From a virus: 49,761 bases of DNA. The position numbers were made by a program, and so were the translations under genes. The stretch spans positions 1 through 49,761 of IMG/VR virus record IMGVR_UViG_3300045972_000139. One strand, 5' to 3'. Below are positions 1-49,761 of this stretch, piece after piece. Below the pieces are notes generated by a model, which saw nothing but the letters and a program-made list of their open reading frames with translations, made no database searches and was not told the origin of the DNA. Positions within the stretch are counted from its first letter, which is position 1, and every line of letters starts with the position of its first letter.

Positions 1-127
1 TGGGACGAAGTGGCGGCGTACTGAGGTAGCGCGCCATGTCGCTCCTCCTCGCGAGACTCGGCGGCGGGGGCGGCCCCACGCCGGTTGCCATCGCGGGGAC
101 GTCATCGGGGACGGGCGCGGCAACGGC
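1..127. repeat. Terminal direct repeat. Bases 1-127 equal 49635-49761, giving one 49,634-bp circular or permuted unit plus overlap.
   Basis: The first and last 127 nt (tgggacgaagtggcgg...gcggcaacggc) are identical by direct comparison. The ORF opening at 49670 continues as 36..848. Confidence 0.95.
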
Positions 128-1982: not shown

Positions 1983-3206
1983 ATGGCGTTCGATATCTCG
2001 GCGGCCACGCCGATTCTCAAGCAGTACTACACCCCCAAGAAGGTCGAAACCCTCGTCATCCAGAGCCCCGCGCTCGCGGTGATGCCCAAGGACACGGGCG
2101 GCTCCGGCGTCGCGTACGTCGGCGCGATCCGCTCCGCCATCACGTCGGCCGTCTCGTTCACCGACACCACGGCGTTCGCGTCGCAGAGTTCCAGCGTCTA
2201 CAAGCAGTGGGTCTGCCCGTGGCGCAGCGGCTACGCCCGCGCGCTCGTCAGCGGCGAGGCCCTCGACAAGACGGGCAACGACCGCGGCGCGTTCGTCAAG
2301 GCGGTCATCTCCGAGACCGAAGGCGCGTACGACGCGATCGGCCAGCAGATCGGAGCCGCGCTCTGGCACAACGGCGGCGGCGCCATCGGCAAGCTCGACG
2401 GACTCTCCAACGTCGCGACGGCGACGGTCACGCTCGCGAACCCGAGCGACGCCATCAACTTCCGCGTCGGCCAGGTCATCAAGACCAGCGCGACGGATGG
2501 CGTCACCGGCACCGTGCGCGCGGGCTCGGTCACCCTCACCAACGTCGACATCTTCGCCGGCACGCTCACCGCCTCGGGCAACTGGACGGCTGGCATCGCG
2601 ACCGCGGTGAACACCGACTACCTGTTCCCGGACGGCGACTTCGGCCTGGCGTTCCAGGGCATCCCGGCGTGGATCGTCCCCGGCTCGCTTCGCTCCGGCA
2701 TCCTCGCCACGACATTCAACAGCGTGGACCGTTCGACGGACCCCATCCGCCTCGCCGGCGTCCCCTACCAGGGCCGCGGCGCTCCGAAGAAAGAGAGCAT
2801 GGTCCAGCTCGGCATGATGCTGCACCGGCTCAAGAGCAAGCCGAGCCACTTCTTCGTCAACGATCTCGACTTCGCGGACATCTCGAAGGACCTGCTGACC
2901 AACACGCGAATCACCACCGAGACCGCGTACAAGAACCCGCAGATCGGCTTCGCCGCCATCGAGTATGTCGCGCCGTTCGGCACGATCAAGATCATGACCG
3001 ACCCGTTCCTCTCGCAGGGCACGGCGTACATGCTCGACATGTCGACGTGGCTCATGCCGTCGATGGGTCAGATCCCTAAGGTCGACTTCCTCGACAAGAT
3101 GTCGTGGCTCCGCACCGCGGGCGCCGACTCTTACGAGTTCCGCACGCTGTACCGCGCCGCCACCTACTGCTCGAACCCCGCCAAGAACGGCGTCATCGAG
3201 TTCTGA
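1983..3206 (+). CDS. Major capsid protein (HK97-fold type expected)
   Basis: 407 aa with an AGGAG RBS and non-biased composition. It lies in the head module downstream of portal and scaffold. Size and position are typical. Confidence 0.75.
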   Translation: MAFDISAATPILKQYYTPKKVETLVIQSPALAVMPKDTGGSGVAYVGAIRSAITSAVSFTDTTAFASQSSSVYKQWVCPWRSGYARALVSGEALDKTGNDRGAFVKAVISETEGAYDAIGQQIGAALWHNGGGAIGKLDGLSNVATATVTLANPSDAINFRVGQVIKTSATDGVTGTVRAGSVTLTNVDIFAGTLTASGNWTAGIATAVNTDYLFPDGDFGLAFQGIPAWIVPGSLRSGILATTFNSVDRSTDPIRLAGVPYQGRGAPKKESMVQLGMMLHRLKSKPSHFFVNDLDFADISKDLLTNTRITTETAYKNPQIGFAAIEYVAPFGTIKIMTDPFLSQGTAYMLDMSTWLMPSMGQIPKVDFLDKMSWLRTAGADSYEFRTLYRAATYCSNPAKNGVIEF

Positions 3207-19128: not shown

Positions 19129-19389
19129 TCACGGGCCCCACTCGGCGCACTCGGGGCAGTAGCGCTGATACTCGGCGCGGTATGACCCGCAGCCTTCGCA
19201 GTTGTCCTTCCCCCGAATCGCCTCCGCCATCGCGATGAGGCCCGCGAGCGCGGCGGCGCCTCGCAGGTAGGCGCGGCACTCCGTGTGCGTCGGGCACCAC
19301 CAGCCCACGCATGTGCACTGCCCGCAGACGACGCACGGCGGCGCTCCGTAGCGGCACGGCGGCTCGGGACCACCGCCGGCCCACCTCAC
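19129..19389 (-). CDS. Cys-rich (about 14 Cys) putative zinc-binding protein
   Basis: A GTG is preceded by GGAGG. Several CxxC pairs are present (CVVCGQCTC, CEGC, CPEC). It is the last gene of the leftward arm. Confidence 0.55.
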   Translation of the reverse strand: MRWAGGGPEPPCRYGAPPCVVCGQCTCVGWWCPTHTECRAYLRGAAALAGLIAMAEAIRGKDNCEGCGSYRAEYQRYCPECAEWGP

Positions 19390-19525
19390 CGCGTCGCCTC
19401 CGGCCACGCGCGCGCGGCGGTCCAGTCGTGCAGCGCGGTGCCGTAGCGCGCAGGGAGCACGACGAGCAGCGGGTGCGCGACCGCGTTGTGGACGGCGGAC
19501 CAGAGCCAGCGGGTCGCGGAGTCGA

Positions 19526-19658
19526 GGCTGGGGCCTGGAATTGAACCAGGGACCACCGGCTTACAAGGCCGGCGCTCTGTCGCCGCTTGCACGGCAGCCG
19601 AGGCGGTTTCCGGCGTCGACTGACCGGACCTTTCCCGAACGTTCTGAGCTACCCCAGC
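19526..19658 (-). tRNA. tRNA-Thr(UGU)-like gene with a ~60-nt insertion in the D-loop (133 nt, no encoded CCA)
   Basis: Manual fold: acceptor GCUGGGG/CCCCAGC, D-stem GCUC/GAGC, anticodon stem CCGGC/GCCGG with loop CUUGUAA, variable UGGUC, T-arm CCUGG-UUCAAUU-CCAGG. The D-loop is 68 nt. Confidence 0.7.
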
Positions 19659-19674
19659 CTCCACTCCGCCACGC

Positions 19675-19917
19675 TCACCCATCGCCCGCATCCTTCTCCG
19701 CGTCGCCCGCGGCGGCGGCCATCAGCAGCCCAGCCAGCGCGGAGAACGCGCTCGACAGCCTCTCGCAGTCGTCCTGCGACAGATACGACTTGTACCGGCC
19801 TCCCTCCTCATCGGGCAGGTAGCACTTCACCATGTCGCCCCGGCAGGTCACCACGGCGTCAATCCCAAGCTCGTTGACGACAGCCAACGCGCCGTCACGA
19901 TAGCTCTCCGCGCTCAC
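19675..19917 (-). CDS. Hypothetical protein (80 aa)
   Basis: GTG in a GTGA overlap with the stop of 19914..20645. Only this part of ORF 19675..20193 is protein-like. Confidence 0.6.
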   Translation of the reverse strand: MSAESYRDGALAVVNELGIDAVVTCRGDMVKCYLPDEEGGRYKSYLSQDDCERLSSAFSALAGLLMAAAAGDAEKDAGDG

Positions 19918-20645
19918 CGCCCCACCTCCGCCGCGAGGCAGCCAGGGGCAGAGCGATACGCATCGACGGCCACGGCGAGCGCGGTGCATGCATCGGTGTC
20001 GAATCTGCCGTCCTCGTCGGCGGCGACGCATCGACGGGCAGCGCGCAGCAGGGTGTGCTCTCTCGTGCGGTACTCCTCCCCGCGCTGATTTACCCCGAGC
20101 TCTCTCCGCAGCGCGGTCACCTCCGCCGCGAGGCAGCCCGGCGCGTGGGATTCGGGGGCGTCGATGGGCCATGTGCGCGTGCAGACCCCGCATAGCCTCG
20201 CGTCGCCGTCAGGAAGCTCGGAGATACGATGCTGCGTCATCGTCCGCAGCGCCGCCCGCAGCGCGGTCACCTCGGCGCGGAGGGCGTTGGCGTCCGGGAT
20301 GGTGTACTCGGGGTCGACGCCGTACTCGGGCGCCCATAGCACCGCAGGCTTGCCCACGCGGATGTTGTCGGCGGCCTGGCGTAGCCTCGCACCTGGCATG
20401 GTGAGCGGACCCGCGCCCGTCTCCATGAAGTGCGCGAGCACCTCGCAGTGACGAGCACACCGCTCACGTTCGGCGTCCCGCTCCGCCCGCGCCTCATCGC
20501 GCTCGCGGGTGAGGGTGGCGATGGTGGCGCGGAAGTCCTCGTAGGGCGCGGCGAGCGCGTGGCTCAGTGCCGCGCGGGACGATGCGGCGTCGCAGTCGCT
20601 ACACCCGAACGCGGGGCTGCCCGCGTGCGCGACGCAGCCGCTCAC
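19914..20645 (-). CDS. Hypothetical protein with internal duplications (PGCLAAEV / AEVTALR motifs)
   Basis: 243 aa, GTGA-coupled. It holds an exact 21-bp (19923-19943 = 20118-20138) and an exact 17-bp (20107-20123 = 20257-20273) in-frame repeat. Confidence 0.7.
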   Translation of the reverse strand: MSGCVAHAGSPAFGCSDCDAASSRAALSHALAAPYEDFRATIATLTRERDEARAERDAERERCARHCEVLAHFMETGAGPLTMPGARLRQAADNIRVGKPAVLWAPEYGVDPEYTIPDANALRAEVTALRAALRTMTQHRISELPDGDARLCGVCTRTWPIDAPESHAPGCLAAEVTALRRELGVNQRGEEYRTREHTLLRAARRCVAADEDGRFDTDACTALAVAVDAYRSAPGCLAAEVGR

Positions 20646-20947
20646 GTCCCACCTCCCGCATCGAGGGCCGCGAGGGCGTTGCCGGTGGCGTTCTCCGCTT
20701 CGACGACACGCTCGACTACCTCGCCCATTTCCTCGTCAACAAATGCGGCGTGCGTCGCATAGGGCAGGTAGCCCAGGTGCAGTACCAGCACCCTCGCCGC
20801 CTCCACCACGGCGCGCATCGCCTCGACGCGAGCCTCCGCAGCGAGGGCGCGGGTGTGCCACGTCGCGACGGTGCCCCCGAGGGCGTCCACCACGTCGGCG
20901 CGGGTGAGTCCCGCATCCGGGCCGGGCTGCTTGCGTCGTGTCGTCAT
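20642..20947 (-). CDS. Hypothetical protein
   Basis: 101 aa with ATG and a GGAG RBS. Balanced composition. Confidence 0.7.
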   Translation of the reverse strand: MTTRRKQPGPDAGLTRADVVDALGGTVATWHTRALAAEARVEAMRAVVEAARVLVLHLGYLPYATHAAFVDEEMGEVVERVVEAENATGNALAALDAGGGT

Positions 20948-21013
20948 GTCTCAGTTCTCCGTCCCCTCGCCAGGTCGCGAGCCTGGTAACGCGTCATCGC
21001 CGAGGGGTGCGTG

Positions 21014-21235
21014 TCAGGTCGCCACGATGTCTGCGCGGTCGCCGTAGCCGTAGCCGGAGCCGTAGCCGTAGCCGTCGCCGTCGCCGTAGCCGGAGCCGTC
21101 GCCGGAGCCGTCGCCGTAGCCGTAGCCGGAGCCGGAGCCGTCGCCGTAGCCGTAGCCGTAGCCGGAGCCGTCGCCGTAGCCGGAGCCGTCGCCGGAGCCC
21201 AGATCCGTCGGGGCCTTGCCCCTCAGGACTTCCAC
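21014..21235 (-). CDS. Low-complexity (Gly-X)27 peptide with X = Tyr, Ser or Asp, 73 aa
   Basis: GTG at 21235 lies just upstream of the stop of 21223..21546. The ORF reads VEVLRGKAPTDL-(GX)27-RADIVAT and is the only minus-strand frame of the hexamer array that sits in an ORF of the supplied track. Confidence 0.5.
   Translation of the reverse strand: MEVLRGKAPTDLGSGDGSGYGDGSGYGYGYGDGSGSGYGYGDGSGDGSGYGDGDGYGYGSGYGYGDRADIVAT
21038..21199 (-). repeat. 27 tandem hexanucleotides (plus-strand GCCGTA / GCCGGA / GCCGTC)
   Basis: Read directly: 162 nt of uninterrupted GCC-G(T/G)(A/C) units. Confidence 0.9.
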
Positions 21236-21546
21236 GGCGCGGCCTTCCACGCGGCCTCGGCCGCAGGCGTCACCGCGAGGACCGCCGTGATGTTGCGCAG
21301 CACGATGTCCGCCGCGAGGCCGATGCGGCACGACGCGCTCGGCCCGTTCGACGCGAGCCCCATGAAGCCCTTGACGTCGGCGCTCCAGTAGACGCAGAGG
21401 CGCGCGTCGCGTAGCGCGATCGTCTCCCCGTCGATGTCCGTCGCGTAGCCGAAAAACACACCGCGATGCGCGGTCGTCACGACCACCGGACGGGCCTTGC
21501 TGGTGGTGGTCTTCTTCGCGGTCTTCTTCTTCGTCGCCATTCTCAT
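21223..21546 (-). CDS. Hypothetical protein with a Lys/Thr-rich N-terminus
   Basis: 107 aa, ATGA-coupled to the upstream gene, with protein-like composition. Confidence 0.7.
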   Translation of the reverse strand: MRMATKKKTAKKTTTSKARPVVVTTAHRGVFFGYATDIDGETIALRDARLCVYWSADVKGFMGLASNGPSASCRIGLAADIVLRNITAVLAVTPAAEAAWKAAPWKS

Positions 21547-21776
21547 TTCTCCTTCGTCGTTGTCGATGCGAAATCCTCAATGCGCACCCTGCACTCACTA
21601 GCGCTGCTCCACACGCCGTCGCTCTCCGCATCCACCTCCCGGCAGATGCGCACCGCCTCCGCGAGCGCCTCCGCGCGCACCTCGCGCAGGAGGGAGGCGA
21701 GGTCGATGAACTGCGGACGGTGGACGTTAGCCTCCAGCCACGCCCGCGCGCGGGCTTCGTCGGCGGGGGCGGTCAT
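21543..21776 (-). CDS. Hypothetical protein (77 aa)
   Basis: ATG in an ATGA overlap with the stop of the GNAT gene. The alternative ATG at 21791 is not excluded. Confidence 0.6.
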   Translation of the reverse strand: MTAPADEARARAWLEANVHRPQFIDLASLLREVRAEALAEAVRICREVDAESDGVWSSASECRVRIEDFASTTTKEK

Positions 21777-22924: not shown

Positions 22925-24340
22925 TTACGGTCGCACATCTTCAGCGAGGGCTTCGGCGGTGCGCCACGTGAAGCGCAGCGGCGCGCCGGGGGCGACGTGG
23001 GCAGCGGTCGCGAGGTCTTGCACAACGGCTCGTCGGACATCGGGCGCCGCACGCTTCCACGACTTCGCTAGCACGTCGAGCGACCGAAGCACGTCGCGGC
23101 GGACCTCCTCGCTCGCGAGCGCACTCGGCTTCGCGTCGGCCACCTCCGCTGCGTCAAGGCGGCGTTGCGCTTCGTCGATCTTCGCGACCTTCACGCGCTT
23201 CTCATCGCGAGTCATGTCCCCATCGTCGAACGACTCCAGCACGCGTTCGCGCTTCGCCGCTAGCTTCGCGCGCTTCGCGGCGTAATCGACCACCGGCGCG
23301 GACACCGGCTCGGGTCCGCGCGCGATGTCCTCACGCAGCTCCGCGAGCCGAGCGACAATGAGCGGGCCGGCCTCCGACTCGACGGTGCCCACCCGTATGT
23401 AGTTCGTCGTGCAGTGCGCCGCGCATCGGTAGTAGTGCCGACGACCTGAGCCGACCGGACCCGCGTATGCCGCCGACATCTTCGCCCCGCAGAGTCCACA
23501 TCGAGCGATGTCGCGAAGGAGCCATGTCGACGTCTCCGACACAGCCGACCGCGCCTTGCCCATGAGGCGGCGCGAGGCCACCGCGTCGCGCGCCTTGTCG
23601 AACGTCGCCGCGTCGATCAGAGGCTCGTGATGCCCCTTGACCCACTCGCCCCGGCTGTTCTCGATGGCGCCCGTGTAGAGCCGCGTGCGGAGGATGCCGT
23701 TGACGCTGTCCTTCCGCATGCCGAGCTCCGTCGCGATATCGCTCATCGACTTGCCGCGGATCGCCAGGCGGAACACCTGGCGCACGCGCTCCGCCCCATT
23801 GGGATCGACGGAGAGGACGTTGCGATCCTGGCCTCGCGCGAGAGGGCGCACGTAGCCGATGGGCGGCAATCCTTCGACGTAGAACCCTCGGTCGCGGAGC
23901 AGTTGCCGCGTACCGACCAGGCGGTCCCGTATTCGGGCGTGCTCCTCGTCCGCCATCATCGCGCGCATCGTCAGCATCATCTTCCCGTCGCGTGTCGACG
24001 GGTCGCACGAGTCGTCGATCGCGTAGAAGCTCGCGCCCTTCTCCAGAATCTCGCGAACGCTCTTCAGCGTCTGCTCCGTGTCGCGGCTCCACCTGTCGAG
24101 CTTCGCGCAGAGCACGATGTCACCTTCGCGTACGTCGCGATGTAGCGCGAGCATCTGGGTGCGCCGCTCTTGCTTCTCGCGGATGCCAGACTCGGCCTCG
24201 ACGAAGAAGCGATCGACCGTCAGGCCGCGGCTTTTCGCGTACGTCGAGATCGTGTTTTGCTGGTCTTGGAGGCTCGTGCCGTGGGCTTGCTCGACGGACG
24301 AGACGCGGGCGTAGCCGATGGCTCTTCGGGGTCTGGACAT
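22925..24340 (-). CDS. int: Large serine recombinase (integrase)
   Basis: N-terminal resolvase motif AIGYARVSSVEQ...DRWSRD, a long C-terminal recombinase/zinc-ribbon region with Cys pairs, and a coiled coil. The alternative upstream ATG at 24400 would add 20 aa. Confidence 0.9.
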   Translation of the reverse strand: MSRPRRAIGYARVSSVEQAHGTSLQDQQNTISTYAKSRGLTVDRFFVEAESGIREKQERRTQMLALHRDVREGDIVLCAKLDRWSRDTEQTLKSVREILEKGASFYAIDDSCDPSTRDGKMMLTMRAMMADEEHARIRDRLVGTRQLLRDRGFYVEGLPPIGYVRPLARGQDRNVLSVDPNGAERVRQVFRLAIRGKSMSDIATELGMRKDSVNGILRTRLYTGAIENSRGEWVKGHHEPLIDAATFDKARDAVASRRLMGKARSAVSETSTWLLRDIARCGLCGAKMSAAYAGPVGSGRRHYYRCAAHCTTNYIRVGTVESEAGPLIVARLAELREDIARGPEPVSAPVVDYAAKRAKLAAKRERVLESFDDGDMTRDEKRVKVAKIDEAQRRLDAAEVADAKPSALASEEVRRDVLRSLDVLAKSWKRAAPDVRRAVVQDLATAAHVAPGAPLRFTWRTAEALAEDVRP

Positions 24341-24403
24341 GCGAGAGCCTTCAATAGCAGAGCTGCGATGCGGTCGAACCTCGTCATAGTGTTGCCTCAT
24401 TTT

Positions 24404-48989: not shown

Positions 48990-49658
48990 ATGCCGCTTCA
49001 AATTCAGGGCAACGCAGGCGTCACCGCCGAGGTCGAGACGAACACGCGGGCGATCCGCACGACGCTGCGACCTATCGACGTGGGCGCGCTCGGGTCGTAC
49101 CGCGTCGCGGAGTTCTCGGGGCTCATGGCGACGATCGCCGCGAAGACGGCCACGGCGGGCCACATCTTCGCGTGGCGGTGGGGCGACGCCACGCGGTTCG
49201 CACTGCTCAAGTACCTCAAGATTCGATACTCGGTCGTCACCGGATTCACGGCGGCGCAAGAGCTTGGCTTCGACGCGATCATCGCGCGTGGGTACACGGT
49301 CAGTTCCTCGGCGGGCACGGCGATCACGCTTGGCGGCAACTCGATGAAGAAGCGCACGAGCATGGGTGCGTCACTTCTGACGGATGCGCGCATCGCTGCG
49401 GCGGTGGCGCTCACGGCTGGCACGCACACGCTCGACGGCCAGCCGATTGTCACGTCGGGGCGGCGCACGCTCGCCGCCGCGGCGACGGTCGAGGGTCTCG
49501 ACTTCGAGGAGGCGCTCGACCTCACCAACTCGGGTGACTACCCCTACGTCTTCGCCCAGAACGAGGGCATCATCGTGCGCAACAACATCCTGATGGGAGC
49601 GGGCGGCACGGTGCGTCTCCACGTCCAGATGGCATGGGACGAAGTGGCGGCGTACTGA
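48990..49658 (+). CDS. Virion-associated hypothetical protein (222 aa)
   Basis: GAGGACATCATG start context identical to that of 48184. Beta-rich composition. Confidence 0.6.
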   Translation: MPLQIQGNAGVTAEVETNTRAIRTTLRPIDVGALGSYRVAEFSGLMATIAAKTATAGHIFAWRWGDATRFALLKYLKIRYSVVTGFTAAQELGFDAIIARGYTVSSSAGTAITLGGNSMKKRTSMGASLLTDARIAAAVALTAGTHTLDGQPIVTSGRRTLAAAATVEGLDFEEALDLTNSGDYPYVFAQNEGIIVRNNILMGAGGTVRLHVQMAWDEVAAY

Positions 49659-49669
49659 GGTAGCGCGCC

Positions 49670-49761
49670 ATGTCGCTCCTCCTCGCGAGACTCGGCGGCG
49701 GGGGCGGCCCCACGCCGGTTGCCATCGCGGGGACGTCATCGGGGACGGGCGCGGCAACGGC
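49670..49761 (+). CDS. 5' part of the tandem-repeat protein gene, a duplicate of 36..127 created by the window overlap
   Basis: The sequence is identical to 36-127. Confidence 0.9.
   Translation, partial: MSLLLARLGGGGGPTPVAIAGTSSGTGAAT

What the first reader, a model, noticed from the sequence alone, without database searches (positions are those of the whole stretch)
19526..19658. Canonical tRNA-Thr(UGU) carrying a ~60-nt insertion in the D-loop
Read on the minus strand, every tRNA helix is perfect:
- acceptor GCUGGGG/CCCCAGC
- D-stem GCUC/GAGC
- anticodon stem CCGGC/GCCGG with loop CUUGUAA (anticodon UGU)
- variable loop UGGUC
- T-arm CCUGG-UUCAAUU-CCAGG

U8, A14, R15, A21, U33 and the T-loop UUCAA are all canonical. 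The D-loop, however, is 68 nt (19578-19645) instead of about 8-11 nt. The extra ~60 nt can form two hairpins: GG-UCCGG/CCGGA-CC around a GUCGAC-containing loop, and GCCG-UGCAAG-CGGC. No CCA is encoded.

As far as I know, bacterial and phage tRNA introns are group I introns of more than 200 nt in the anticodon loop, and bulge-helix-bulge introns are archaeal or eukaryal. A compact D-loop insert in a phage tRNA fits neither class. It could be a small self-processing or host-processed intron, a regulatory or protective expansion (for example against tRNA-targeting nucleases), or a freshly disrupted pseudogene.
Basis: partly seen in the sequence, partly recalled or inferred. Interest (0 to 1): 0.8.

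Follow-up and report, generated by a model that had tools for sequence, protein, structure and literature searches.

The report
Phage threonine tRNA with interrupted D-loop
A temperate phage carries a threonine tRNA gene that is perfect except for about 60 extra bases in one loop; this copy is probably a recently acquired, disabled gene, but similar short inserts recur in other phage tRNA genes and appear undescribed.

Summary
On the minus strand, 19526-19658 is a tRNA-Thr(UGU) gene with 21 of 21 Watson-Crick stem pairs and a 68-nt D-loop. ARAGORN and Rfam miss this reading. They call a 73-76-nt version with two acceptor mismatches and a 2-bp D-stem (33.7 bits).

The insert matches no Rfam ribozyme or intron. 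It folds no better than shuffled sequence (z = +0.4), has no second copy in the genome, and reduces the predicted D-stem probability to 0.01.

A close relative (L368, 96-98% identical in the flanks) has no tRNA. There, 91 unrelated bases, including the ATG of the next gene, replace window 19516-19681. The tRNA therefore sits in a roughly 166-nt cassette at a mosaic joint. One open frame now runs through it.

My best reading is a recently acquired tRNA gene that cannot decode in unprocessed form (0.45). The main rival is a working tRNA with an intervening sequence (0.28).

The pattern is not unique. One is an unannotated gene in Lactobacillus phage Lb whose insert stem shows compensatory changes. 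I found no paper describing this.

The parts
19526..19658 (-). Whole tRNA-Thr(UGU) gene including the D-loop insert (133 nt; the discriminator C is 19526)
   Evidence: Sequence. The pattern matches once against 0.00 expected. ARAGORN calls tRNA-Thr from base 1 after in-silico excision.
19646..19658 (-). 5' exon part: acceptor 5' strand GCUGGGG, then U8 A9, then D-stem 5' strand GCUC
   Evidence: Sequence. It pairs 7/7 with 19527-19533 and 4/4 with 19574-19577 (7 pairs, 7 Watson-Crick).
19578..19645 (-). 68-nt D-loop, about 57-60 nt of which is inserted. Exact borders cannot be set. The only GG in a near-canonical 3' context is 19583-19584.
   Evidence: Fold z = +0.42 and +0.37. No Rfam match at E<=10. 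No second copy in the genome. It contains the genome's only AACGTT and 2 of the avoided CCGG sites.
19526..19577 (-). 3' exon part: D-stem 3' strand GAGC, G26, anticodon arm (anticodon UGU at 19563-19565), variable loop UGGUC, T-arm, acceptor 3' strand, discriminator
   Evidence: This part carries the Rfam tRNA match. The anticodon arm is 5/5 paired with U33 and A37.
19524..19599 (-). The shorter tRNA called by ARAGORN (19524-19599) and Rfam (19526-19598). It is a weaker alternative reading that takes its 5' strand from inside the insert.
   Evidence: 33.7 bits, two non-standard acceptor pairs, 2-bp D-stem.
19516..19681 (-). Cassette that differs from the close relative L368: 23-nt leader, the tRNA, and a 10-nt trailer. 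L368 has 91 unrelated bases here.
   Evidence: blastn breakpoints and pairwise alignment.
19675..19917 (-). Upstream 80-aa gene. Its stop codon is 17 nt before the tRNA.
   Evidence: GC3 periodicity. The exact product is on record on L369.
19386..19515 (-). Conserved part of the small downstream gene (TRWLWSAVHN...). It has lost the ATG present in L368. Its stop overlaps the next gene's GTG (GTGA at 19386-19389).
   Evidence: GC3 of 0.95-1.0 from 19515 downwards. Homolog P0096. Alignment.
19386..19682 (-). 98-aa open frame that runs from an ATG overlapping the upstream stop, through the whole tRNA, into the small gene
   Evidence: ORF list. Called as a CDS on L369. It shows no coding periodicity in 19530-19680, and no CDS here turned up in the protein collection that holds this contig's other JGI gene products.

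Best explanation
This is a genuine bacterial-type tRNA-Thr(UGU) gene whose D-loop holds about 57-60 nt of unrelated, non-conserved sequence.

It entered this temperate phage recently, as a cassette of about 166 nt, by non-homologous (mosaic) recombination inside the leftward operon. The same joint removed the start codon of the next small gene. One open frame now spans the tRNA.

As transcribed, the RNA can still form the acceptor, anticodon and T arms. It is therefore a plausible substrate for end-processing enzymes. The D-arm is not predicted to form across the 68-nt unstructured loop. Without removal of the insert it is most likely not a working decoder. In short, it is a freshly disrupted tRNA gene, or a tRNA-like remnant.

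Shown:
- the anatomy
- the absence of known intron or ribozyme signatures
- the absence of the cassette from a close relative
- the breakpoints

Inferred:
- recency of acquisition
- loss of decoding function
For: - Anatomy and non-chance status.
- The insert folds no better than shuffles.
- No Rfam intron or ribozyme matches.
- There is no second copy of the insert and no terminal repeat beyond the 4-nt CAGA.
- From the partition function, the D-stem pairing probability is 0.01, while the acceptor probability is 1.0. The median D-stem probability for the other insert-bearing tRNAs is 0.35.
- No GG lies in a clean canonical G18-G19 context (sequence).
- L368 is 95.8% identical to window 19398-19515 and 97.6% identical to 20244-20530, yet has no tRNA. 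Homology stops 10 nt after the tRNA.
- The small gene's ATG in L368 is GCG in the window.
- More distant relatives with the same lysin and convergent small-gene layout have no tRNA.
- The cassette is rich in sites the genome avoids. It holds 4 CCGG in 133 nt, while the genome has 232 against 435 expected. It also holds the genome's only AACGTT.
- There is no coding periodicity in 19530-19680.
Against: - All 21 stem pairs and the invariant bases are intact: U8, A14, G15-C48, U33, A37, G53, T54, T55, C56, A58, C61. No decay is visible. This is also what a very recent disruption would show.
- Gaining a cassette and then hitting its D-loop would be two rare events in a short time. It is simpler that the donor already carried the insert, which hints that it was tolerated there.
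- Short D-loop inserts recur in tRNA genes of the IMG/VR collection. In one family the insert evolves under structural constraint. A functional class is therefore plausible.
- No insert-free allele of this tRNA was found.
Confidence: 0.45

Rival explanations
1. It is a working tRNA-Thr with a short intervening sequence. It would belong to a so far undescribed set of phage tRNAs whose D-loop insert is either removed after transcription, by a host or phage nuclease plus a ligase or by cleavage without religation, or tolerated as an extra arm at the elbow.
For: - The exons and identity elements are perfect: G1-C72, C2-G71, G35, U36.
- In the first 119 IMG/VR loci, 41 distinct tRNA or tRNA-like genes have 40-70-nt D-loop inserts and a 6-7/7 outer acceptor. 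Ordinary-tRNA controls pair at random there.
- 30% of those inserts fold with z < -2.
- Such genes sit in tRNA arrays. L110 has four insert-bearing tRNAs in a row that share a motif.
- In the Lactobacillus phage Lb family, every member found carries the insert, and its closing stem has compensatory changes.
Against: - The window's insert has none of the marks seen in the convincing cases. It has no closing stem, z is +0.4, and the D-stem probability is 0.01.
- It shares no motif with other inserts. The only shared word is a 13-mer with L020/L055, which the follow-up scan did not support as a motif.
- No bacterial pathway is known that removes such an insert (established knowledge).
- A close relative does without the tRNA.
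- Only 38% of the insert-bearing set has a canonical anticodon arm, so the set is not uniformly made of decoders.
Confidence: 0.28
2. The tRNA-derived sequence is now mainly protein-coding. The 98-aa frame 19386-19682 would be translated to keep the conserved C-terminal peptide, and the coupled downstream gene, expressed after the native ATG was lost. The tRNA shape would be a leftover.
For: - The frame is open and in phase. Its ATG overlaps the upstream stop (ATGGGTGA) and lies 9 nt after GGAGAAGG. Its stop overlaps the next start (GTGA).
- It is called as a CDS on L369.
- The conserved part differs from L368 mostly at synonymous sites.
- 68 minus a canonical 8-nt D-loop gives 60, which would preserve the frame.
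Against: - There is no codon-position GC signal in 19530-19680, while neighbouring genes reach 0.9-1.0.
- Only the C-terminal 45% of the frame has a homolog.
- Searching the frame against the protein collection that holds this contig's other JGI gene products (P0001, P0002) returned only P0096 from another contig. So no CDS here is on record from that source.
- An open frame of 56 codons in 68% GC DNA is not rare (my estimate is about 0.3).
- The GGAGAAGG is inherited coding sequence of the upstream gene and is also present in L368.
Confidence: 0.15
3. The real gene is the 73-76-nt tRNA called by ARAGORN and Rfam (19524/6-19598/9). The upstream GCUGGGGUAGCUCAG would be a stray 5' tRNA fragment, as in the many loci where a 5' fragment precedes a complete tRNA.
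For: - Both tools call it.
- The arrangement of a 5' fragment followed by a complete tRNA is common in the scans.
Against: - The inner 5' strand has two C-C mismatches. It has no U8-A14 context and only a 2-bp D-stem. Its 33.7 bits compares with 45-74 bits for ordinary phage tRNAs.
- It does not read as a decayed copy of the outer fragment by eye: beyond the first four bases, about half of the first 15 positions match (sequence).
- The outer strand gives 11 of 11 perfect pairs.
Confidence: 0.05
4. It is a tRNA-like processing signal. The intact acceptor/T-arm minihelix would serve as an RNase P or RNase Z cut site that splits the operon transcript, with no decoding role.
For: - The acceptor stem probability is 1.0, and the T-arm is intact.
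- The element lies inside an operon, 17 nt after one gene and directly before the next.
- No promoter or terminator was found nearby.
Against: - There is no conservation.
- The close relative lacks it.
- This role would not explain the perfectly kept anticodon arm.
Confidence: 0.05

Closest known systems
Archaeal bulge-helix-bulge tRNA introns at non-canonical positions, including the D-arm
   Same: They are short (about 12-100 nt) intervening sequences that interrupt an otherwise canonical tRNA outside the anticodon loop. In the genome-contig scan, 8 of the 10 insert-bearing hits were in contigs labelled archaeal or with archaeal-looking sequence.
   Different: They need a bulge-helix-bulge motif at the exon-intron joints and the archaeal or eukaryal splicing endonuclease. 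Here the only motif-like matches would cut into the T-arm. The phage is bacterial in type: it has a GH24 muramidase, and a lysin relative lies in a Gemmatimonadaceae MAG.
Group I self-splicing introns in bacterial and phage tRNA genes (Rfam Intron_gpI)
   Same: They interrupt bacterial-type tRNA genes and are removed at the RNA level.
   Different: They are more than 200 nt long, have a P1-P9 fold, and lie in the anticodon loop. This insert is about 60 nt, lies in the D-loop, and has no Rfam match even at E<=10.
Intervening sequences of bacterial 23S/16S rRNA that RNase III excises without religation
   Same: They are short extra sequences lodged in a loop of a structural RNA. The RNA can still work in pieces, which gives a bacterial route that needs no ligase.
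   Different: They occur in rRNA and rely on a long double-stranded stem as the RNase III substrate. The window's insert has no such stem. The phage Lb insert does have one.
D-loop-insert tRNA and tRNA-like genes found here, for example in Lactobacillus phage Lb (NC_047983, 21170-21299)
   Same: They show the same anatomy: a perfect outer acceptor, the GCUC/GAGC D-stem, and 40-70 nt inside the D-loop. They lie in contigs of a viral collection, and tRNA finders miss them.
   Different: The best cases have a structured insert with a closing stem and covariation. Many have aberrant anticodon loops. The window's insert is unstructured and unrelated in sequence.
Theta (HDV-like) ribozymes next to phage tRNAs (PMC10879173)
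   Same: They are small RNA elements physically linked to phage tRNA genes and thought to act in tRNA maturation.
   Different: They lie beside the tRNA, not inside it. That paper does not mention the D-loop, the D-arm, introns or insertions. No HDV-like match was found here.
5' tRNA fragment followed by a complete tRNA (duplications at integration sites)
   Same: A 5' acceptor plus D-stem fragment lies tens of bases upstream of tRNA-like sequence. This was the commonest result of all three collection scans.
   Different: In those loci the inner tRNA is complete and canonical, and the outer fragment is redundant. Here the inner 5' half is defective, and only the outer strand completes the cloverleaf.

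Membership tests
tRNA (Rfam RF00005, class I cloverleaf) | Four stems of 7, 4, 5 and 5 bp in cloverleaf order | tested here: met
   21 of 21 Watson-Crick pairs when the outer 5' strand is used. ARAGORN calls tRNA-Thr from base 1 after in-silico excision.
tRNA (Rfam RF00005, class I cloverleaf) | Invariant and semi-invariant bases: U8, A14, R15-Y48, A21, U33, R37, G53 T54 T55 C56 R57 A58 C61 | tested here: met
   All are read directly from the sequence.
tRNA (Rfam RF00005, class I cloverleaf) | D-loop of about 7-11 nt with G18 G19 free to dock on the T-loop | tested here: not met
   The D-loop is 68 nt. The candidate GG (19583-19584) lies in a predicted hairpin. The D-stem probability is 0.01.
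tRNA (Rfam RF00005, class I cloverleaf) | Score at or above the Rfam gathering threshold | tested here: met
   33.7 bits against 29, but only for the inner, mismatched alignment at 19526-19598. The spliced form could not be scored with the tools at hand.
Group I intron | More than 200 nt with a conserved P1-P9 core, typically in the anticodon loop | tested here: not met
   The insert is about 60 nt and lies in the D-loop. No Rfam hit at the gathering threshold or at E<=10.
Bulge-helix-bulge intron | Two 3-nt bulges separated by a 4-bp helix at the splice sites | tested here: inconclusive
   My strict-motif script found only two matches, both with the 3' site in the T-arm. There was no enrichment in the insert-bearing set (35 against 34.2 expected). 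The script also missed most archaeal positive controls, so relaxed motifs are not excluded.
Bulge-helix-bulge intron | A host with the archaeal or eukaryal splicing endonuclease | tested here: not met
   The phage encodes a GH24 muramidase and a serine integrase. A lysin relative lies in a Gemmatimonadaceae MAG. This is indirect, because the host was not identified.
Small self-cleaving ribozymes (hammerhead, twister, twister-sister, pistol, hatchet, HDV-like/theta) | Match to the family covariance model | tested here: not met
   The only hit is Twister-P5 at 11.9 bits (gathering score 37.6, E = 5.5), and it lies in the tRNA exons. Fourteen other insert-bearing loci gave none at E<=1.
Miniature mobile DNA element (MITE, IS-derived) | Several copies, terminal inverted repeats, target-site duplication | tested here: not met
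   The genome holds no second copy (the best other match is 13 nt). The only flanking repeat is the 4-nt CAGA, and removing one copy would not restore a D-loop (sequence).
Protein-coding sequence | Codon-position GC periodicity and homologs covering the region | tested here: not met
   No frame stands out in 19530-19680, while flanking genes reach 0.9-1.0. The only homolog covers just the C-terminal 45%.
Phage attachment site in a tRNA gene | A 3' tRNA fragment next to a tyrosine integrase and matching a host tRNA | tested here: not met
   The integrase is a serine recombinase 3.3 kb away. The T-arm plus acceptor 21-mer matches nothing in 185,579 species genomes.

The most novel reading that the evidence does not exclude
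The gene is a working member of an unrecognised class of tRNAs and tRNA-like RNAs associated with bacteriophages. These would carry short (about 35-70 nt) intervening sequences in the D-arm, and in some phages in the anticodon loop. The inserts would be removed or tolerated by a route that is neither group I self-splicing nor bulge-helix-bulge splicing. That would amount to a third kind of tRNA interruption, in the bacterial world.
Probability: 0.25. Interest if true: 0.8.

Novelty: new variant of a known kind. Interest (0 to 1): 0.5.

Why it matters
If the insert is removed or tolerated, bacteria or their phages have a way of handling interrupted tRNAs that is not in the textbooks. Phage tRNA counts, which rest on ARAGORN or tRNAscan calls, would then be systematically incomplete.

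If it is a dead gene, it is still a clean example of how tRNA cassettes enter phage genomes at mosaic joints and damage neighbouring genes.

The wider pattern can be tested now. One example lies in a named phage, Lactobacillus phage Lb, whose recorded host is L. brevis ATCC 367.

Tried and rejected
- **Relatives of the phage or the tRNA.**
  - Nothing was found in the GenBank phage collection with a 601-nt query or a 25-kb query.
  - Nothing was found in IMG/VR by DNA pattern or by two neighbouring proteins.
  - The T-arm/acceptor 21-mer matched nothing in 185,579 species genomes.
  - The 92-aa neighbour has no homolog.
  - Lysin homologs led to ten syntenic loci without any tRNA.
- **A shared insert motif.** The 13-mer GTTCGGGAAAGGT is shared with L020/L055. 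A follow-up scan gave 63 hits. Only L020 and L055 were tRNAs, and the rest were coding sequence, so this is not a motif.
- **Metagenome scan for Thr(UGU) with a 47-77-nt D-loop.** It gave 54 hits. Nearly all were a 5' fragment plus a complete tRNA, and none resembled the window's insert.
- **Bulge-helix-bulge search by script.** It showed no signal, but it failed its own positive controls, so I count it as weak.
- **Attachment-site idea.** Rejected, because the integrase is a serine recombinase 3.3 kb away.
- **Assembly artefact.** Unlikely, because a second assembly is identical, although it may derive from the same reads.
- **Codon demand.** ACA is only 3.4% of Thr codons and ACG is 60%. This neither supports nor excludes a need for the tRNA.
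- **Literature.** Eight successful full-text searches found no description of short D-loop inserts in phage tRNAs. The library holds open-access papers only.

Full report
**What is in the sequence**

Read on the minus strand, 19658-19526 is GCUGGGG-UA-GCUC-[68 nt]-GAGC-G-CCGGC-CUUGUAA-GCCGG-UGGUC-CCUGG-UUCAAUU-CCAGG-CCCCAGC-C.
- All 21 stem pairs are Watson-Crick.
- The invariant bases are present: U8, A14, G15 with C48, A21, U33, A37, G53, T54, T55, C56, A58 and C61.
- The threonine identity elements known from E. coli are present: G1-C72, C2-G71, G35 and U36. These elements are established knowledge, not tested here.
- No CCA is encoded.

A pattern joining the D-stem 5' strand, a 40-70-nt gap, the D-stem 3' strand and the T-loop matches once in the window. 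It matches 0.00 times in 100 shuffles. The seven acceptor pairs come on top of that.

Deleting the middle of the D-loop in silico makes ARAGORN call a full-length tRNA-Thr(tgt) from base 1, for a wide range of deletions.

**What the standard tools see**

- ARAGORN calls a 76-nt tRNA-Thr at 19524-19599.
- Rfam tRNA scores 33.7 bits (gathering score 29) at 19526-19598.

Both take a 5' strand, GCUGCCG, from inside the insert. That strand has two C-C mismatches and a 2-bp D-stem. Ordinary tRNAs in the phage loci I fetched score 45-74 bits.

By eye, the inner 5' half does not look like a decayed copy of the outer one. I treat the short call as an artefact of the penalty these tools put on long insertions.

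**The insert itself**

The 68 nt fold no better than dinucleotide shuffles: z = +0.42 with 123 of 200 shuffles as good, and z = +0.37 in my own run.
- In the partition function of the whole RNA, the acceptor stem has probability 1.0 and the D-stem 0.01.
- No Rfam family matches the region at E<=10, apart from the tRNA itself and a chance-level Twister-P5 hit in the exons.
- The insert has no second copy in the genome. The only flanking repeat is the 4-nt CAGA, and removing one copy would not restore a D-loop.
- My bulge-helix-bulge script found nothing usable. It also missed most archaeal positive controls, so I count that test as weak.

**Genomic setting**

The window is a complete genome of 68% GC with a 127-nt terminal overlap. 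It encodes a serine integrase, a GH24-type lysin, Sak4 and a primase-helicase.

The tRNA lies inside a minus-strand operon.
- It starts 17 nt after the stop of an 80-aa gene.
- The codon-position GC signal is 0.9-1.0 in the neighbouring genes. It vanishes between 19680 and 19530 and returns at 19515.
- An open frame (19386-19682/19691) runs through the tRNA.
- That frame's ATG overlaps the upstream stop, and its stop overlaps the next gene's GTG.
- A gene caller on a second assembly (L369, 100% identical) calls it as a 98-aa CDS.
- Searching the frame against the protein collection that holds this contig's other JGI gene products returned no product from this contig.

**The key comparison**

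The only homolog of that frame is P0096, a 55-aa protein beginning MHHPHGQAMTRWLWSAVHN... It covers just the C-terminal 45% of the frame.

Its contig, L368, compares with the window as follows:
- 95.8% identical to window 19398-19515
- 97.6% identical to window 20244-20530
- homologous at the end of the upstream gene (19682-19717)
- no tRNA

In L368, 91 unrelated bases, including the ATG of the small gene, stand where the window has 19516-19681. Homology resumes 10 nt after the tRNA's 3' end, and the ATG of L368 is GCG in the window.

The tRNA with its insert is therefore a cassette of about 166 nt at a mosaic joint. The cassette was gained in this lineage or lost in the other, and the joint removed the native start of the next gene.

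More distant relatives with the same lysin and convergent small-gene layout also lack a tRNA.

The cassette carries sites the genome avoids. It holds 4 CCGG in 133 nt, while the genome has 232 against 435 expected. It also holds the only AACGTT in 49.8 kb. This fits a recent foreign origin.

**Is such an insert unique?**

No. They split into two groups:
- In 41 distinct sequences, the outer 7-mer pairs 6-7/7 with the 3' acceptor strand and ARAGORN finds no inner tRNA.
- In the others, a 5' tRNA fragment precedes a complete tRNA, and the outer 7-mer pairs at random.

Further properties of the first group:
- 30% of their inserts fold with z < -2.
- They lie in tRNA arrays beside normal tRNAs.
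- L110 has four consecutive tRNAs of 117-123 nt. Three have an insert of about 50 nt in the anticodon loop and one has it in the D-loop. They share a (A/G)CAGCAA motif, preceded by a hairpin in at least three of the four; L105 has the same motif.

L033 is Lactobacillus phage Lb (NC_047983, 21170-21299), whose host is L. brevis. Nothing is annotated at that position. All members of that tRNA family found in IMG/VR carry the insert. Its closing stem shows two compensatory pairs and its inner hairpin one, in only three sequences.

In another family, a tRNA-Gly(CCC) that also serves as an attachment-site tRNA, both alleles exist. One is insert-free. The other has an exact 34-nt hairpin inserted between GGTAG and AGC.

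Limits of this set:
- Only 38% of the insert-bearing set has a canonical anticodon arm, against 79% of ordinary tRNAs. Many members are tRNA-like RNAs rather than decoders. The window's gene is in the canonical minority.
Eight were in contigs labelled archaeal or with archaeal-looking sequence, one was a tandem-duplication artefact, and one was an Actinomycetes MAG.
- A metagenome scan restricted to Thr(UGU) gave only two or three true cases, and none resembled the window.

**Weighing the explanations**

For this copy, the marks of the convincing cases are all missing:
- no closing stem
- no stable fold
- no predicted D-stem
- no conservation

In addition, the cassette is absent from a relative that is 96-98% identical in the flanks. 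I therefore favour a recently acquired tRNA gene that is disabled, at least in unprocessed form (0.45).

Two points count against this. The exons are flawless, although a recent event would leave them so. It is also more economical for the insert to have arrived with the cassette, which hints that a donor tolerated it. Together with the recurrent pattern, this keeps a functional intervening-sequence tRNA alive as the main rival (0.28).

The read-through coding frame (0.15) is compatible with either reading. The short tRNA call and a pure processing-signal role are minor (0.05 each).

**Novelty**

Eight full-text searches found no description of short D-loop inserts in phage tRNAs. The theta-ribozyme paper (PMC10879173) concerns elements beside tRNAs, and it does not mention the D-loop or introns. 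The library holds open-access papers only, so absence of a paper is not proof.

I rate the finding as a new variant of a known kind. It is an interrupted tRNA gene that fits neither known intron class, and its function is unproven. The wider pattern is worth testing directly.

Noticed in passing
IMG/VR loci L011-L129, e.g. L011, L013, L015, L017, L018, L022, L027, L028, L033, L036, L041, L069, L078, L080, L085, L091, L095, L096, L118, L127: 41 distinct tRNA or tRNA-like genes have 40-70 nt inside the D-loop and a well-paired outer acceptor stem. ARAGORN calls none of them. 30% of the inserts fold with z < -2, and only about 38% have a canonical anticodon arm.
   Followed up: partly
L110 3875-4487 (minus strand); L105 94-210: Four consecutive tRNAs of 117-123 nt score 39-50 bits against Rfam tRNA. 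Three have an insert of about 50 nt in the anticodon loop and one has it in the D-loop. The inserts share a (A/G)CAGCAA motif, preceded by a hairpin in at least three of the four. L105 has the same motif. The D-loop member has only a 5-nt anticodon loop.
   Followed up: partly
L365 (Lactobacillus phage Lb NC_047983): locus 3001-3130 (record 21170-21299) and locus 2868-2925 (about record 21375-21432): Two unannotated odd tRNA-like genes lie side by side between the DUF722 gene and the terminase genes. One is a tRNA-Ile(GAU)-like gene with a 57-nt structured D-loop domain. The other is a 58-nt tRNA lacking the whole anticodon arm (Rfam tRNA 47.2 bits).
   Followed up: partly
L091 1186-1292 and L127 10297-10402: These two tRNA-like genes have the same acceptor and T-arm. 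Their anticodon loops are only 5-6 nt. Their D-loop hairpins differ in sequence but have the same architecture, which suggests a conserved non-decoding tRNA-like RNA.
   Followed up: no
L013, L044, L100, L395 compared with L370, L377-L379, L381, L382, L385-L387, L394 and others: One tRNA-Gly(CCC) exists in two alleles. One is insert-free. The other has an exact 34-nt hairpin inserted between GGTAG and AGC of the D-arm. Many other contigs hold only the 3' 45 nt of this tRNA, as attachment sites do.
   Followed up: partly
window 19386-19682 (minus strand): The small gene after the tRNA has lost the ATG seen in its 87%-identical homolog on L368. A 98-aa frame now runs from an ATG overlapping the upstream stop (ATGGGTGA), through the tRNA, to a GTGA overlap with the next gene.
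   Followed up: yes
L368 (1491-nt JGI contig) compared with window 19398-20530 and 23996-24403: In L368 the small gene is followed directly by an integrase homolog (about 75% identical in protein). In the window the two are 3.4 kb apart and in the other order, so this region is strongly mosaic.
   Followed up: partly
whole window; 19638: CCGG (232 observed against 435 expected), TCCGGA, CCCGGG, GGATCC and GTGCAC are strongly under-represented, which suggests restriction avoidance. AACGTT occurs once in the genome, inside the tRNA insert.
   Followed up: partly
window 21014-21631 (minus strand) and 20938-21414 (plus strand): A low-complexity repeat encodes runs of GYGDGSGY-type residues on one strand and RSRSRR on the other. 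The second assembly (L369) ends here.
   Followed up: no
window 1-127 and 49635-49761: The two ends of the contig are identical over 127 nt. This indicates a circular or terminally redundant complete genome.
   Followed up: yes
Genome-contig loci L245-L364; metagenome loci L191-L244: A 5' tRNA fragment (acceptor plus D-stem) lying 40-70 nt upstream of a complete tRNA is common. It is notable in Patescibacteria (Saccharibacteria, Doudnabacteria, Levybacteria and others). Often the fragment is an exact duplicate of the tRNA's own 5' end, as expected at integration sites.
   Followed up: no
L038 2248-2365; L105 182-241: Weak matches to the Y RNA-like family YrlA, a tRNA mimic (36.8 and 24.6 bits; gathering score 69), lie inside phage tRNA arrays.
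   Followed up: no
L358 (Actinomycetes MAG JANXME010000326.1): This is the only clearly bacterial genome hit with a true D-loop insert, a 41-nt hairpin (CCTTCC...GGGAAGG) placed before TGGTA. It may lie in a prophage.
   Followed up: no
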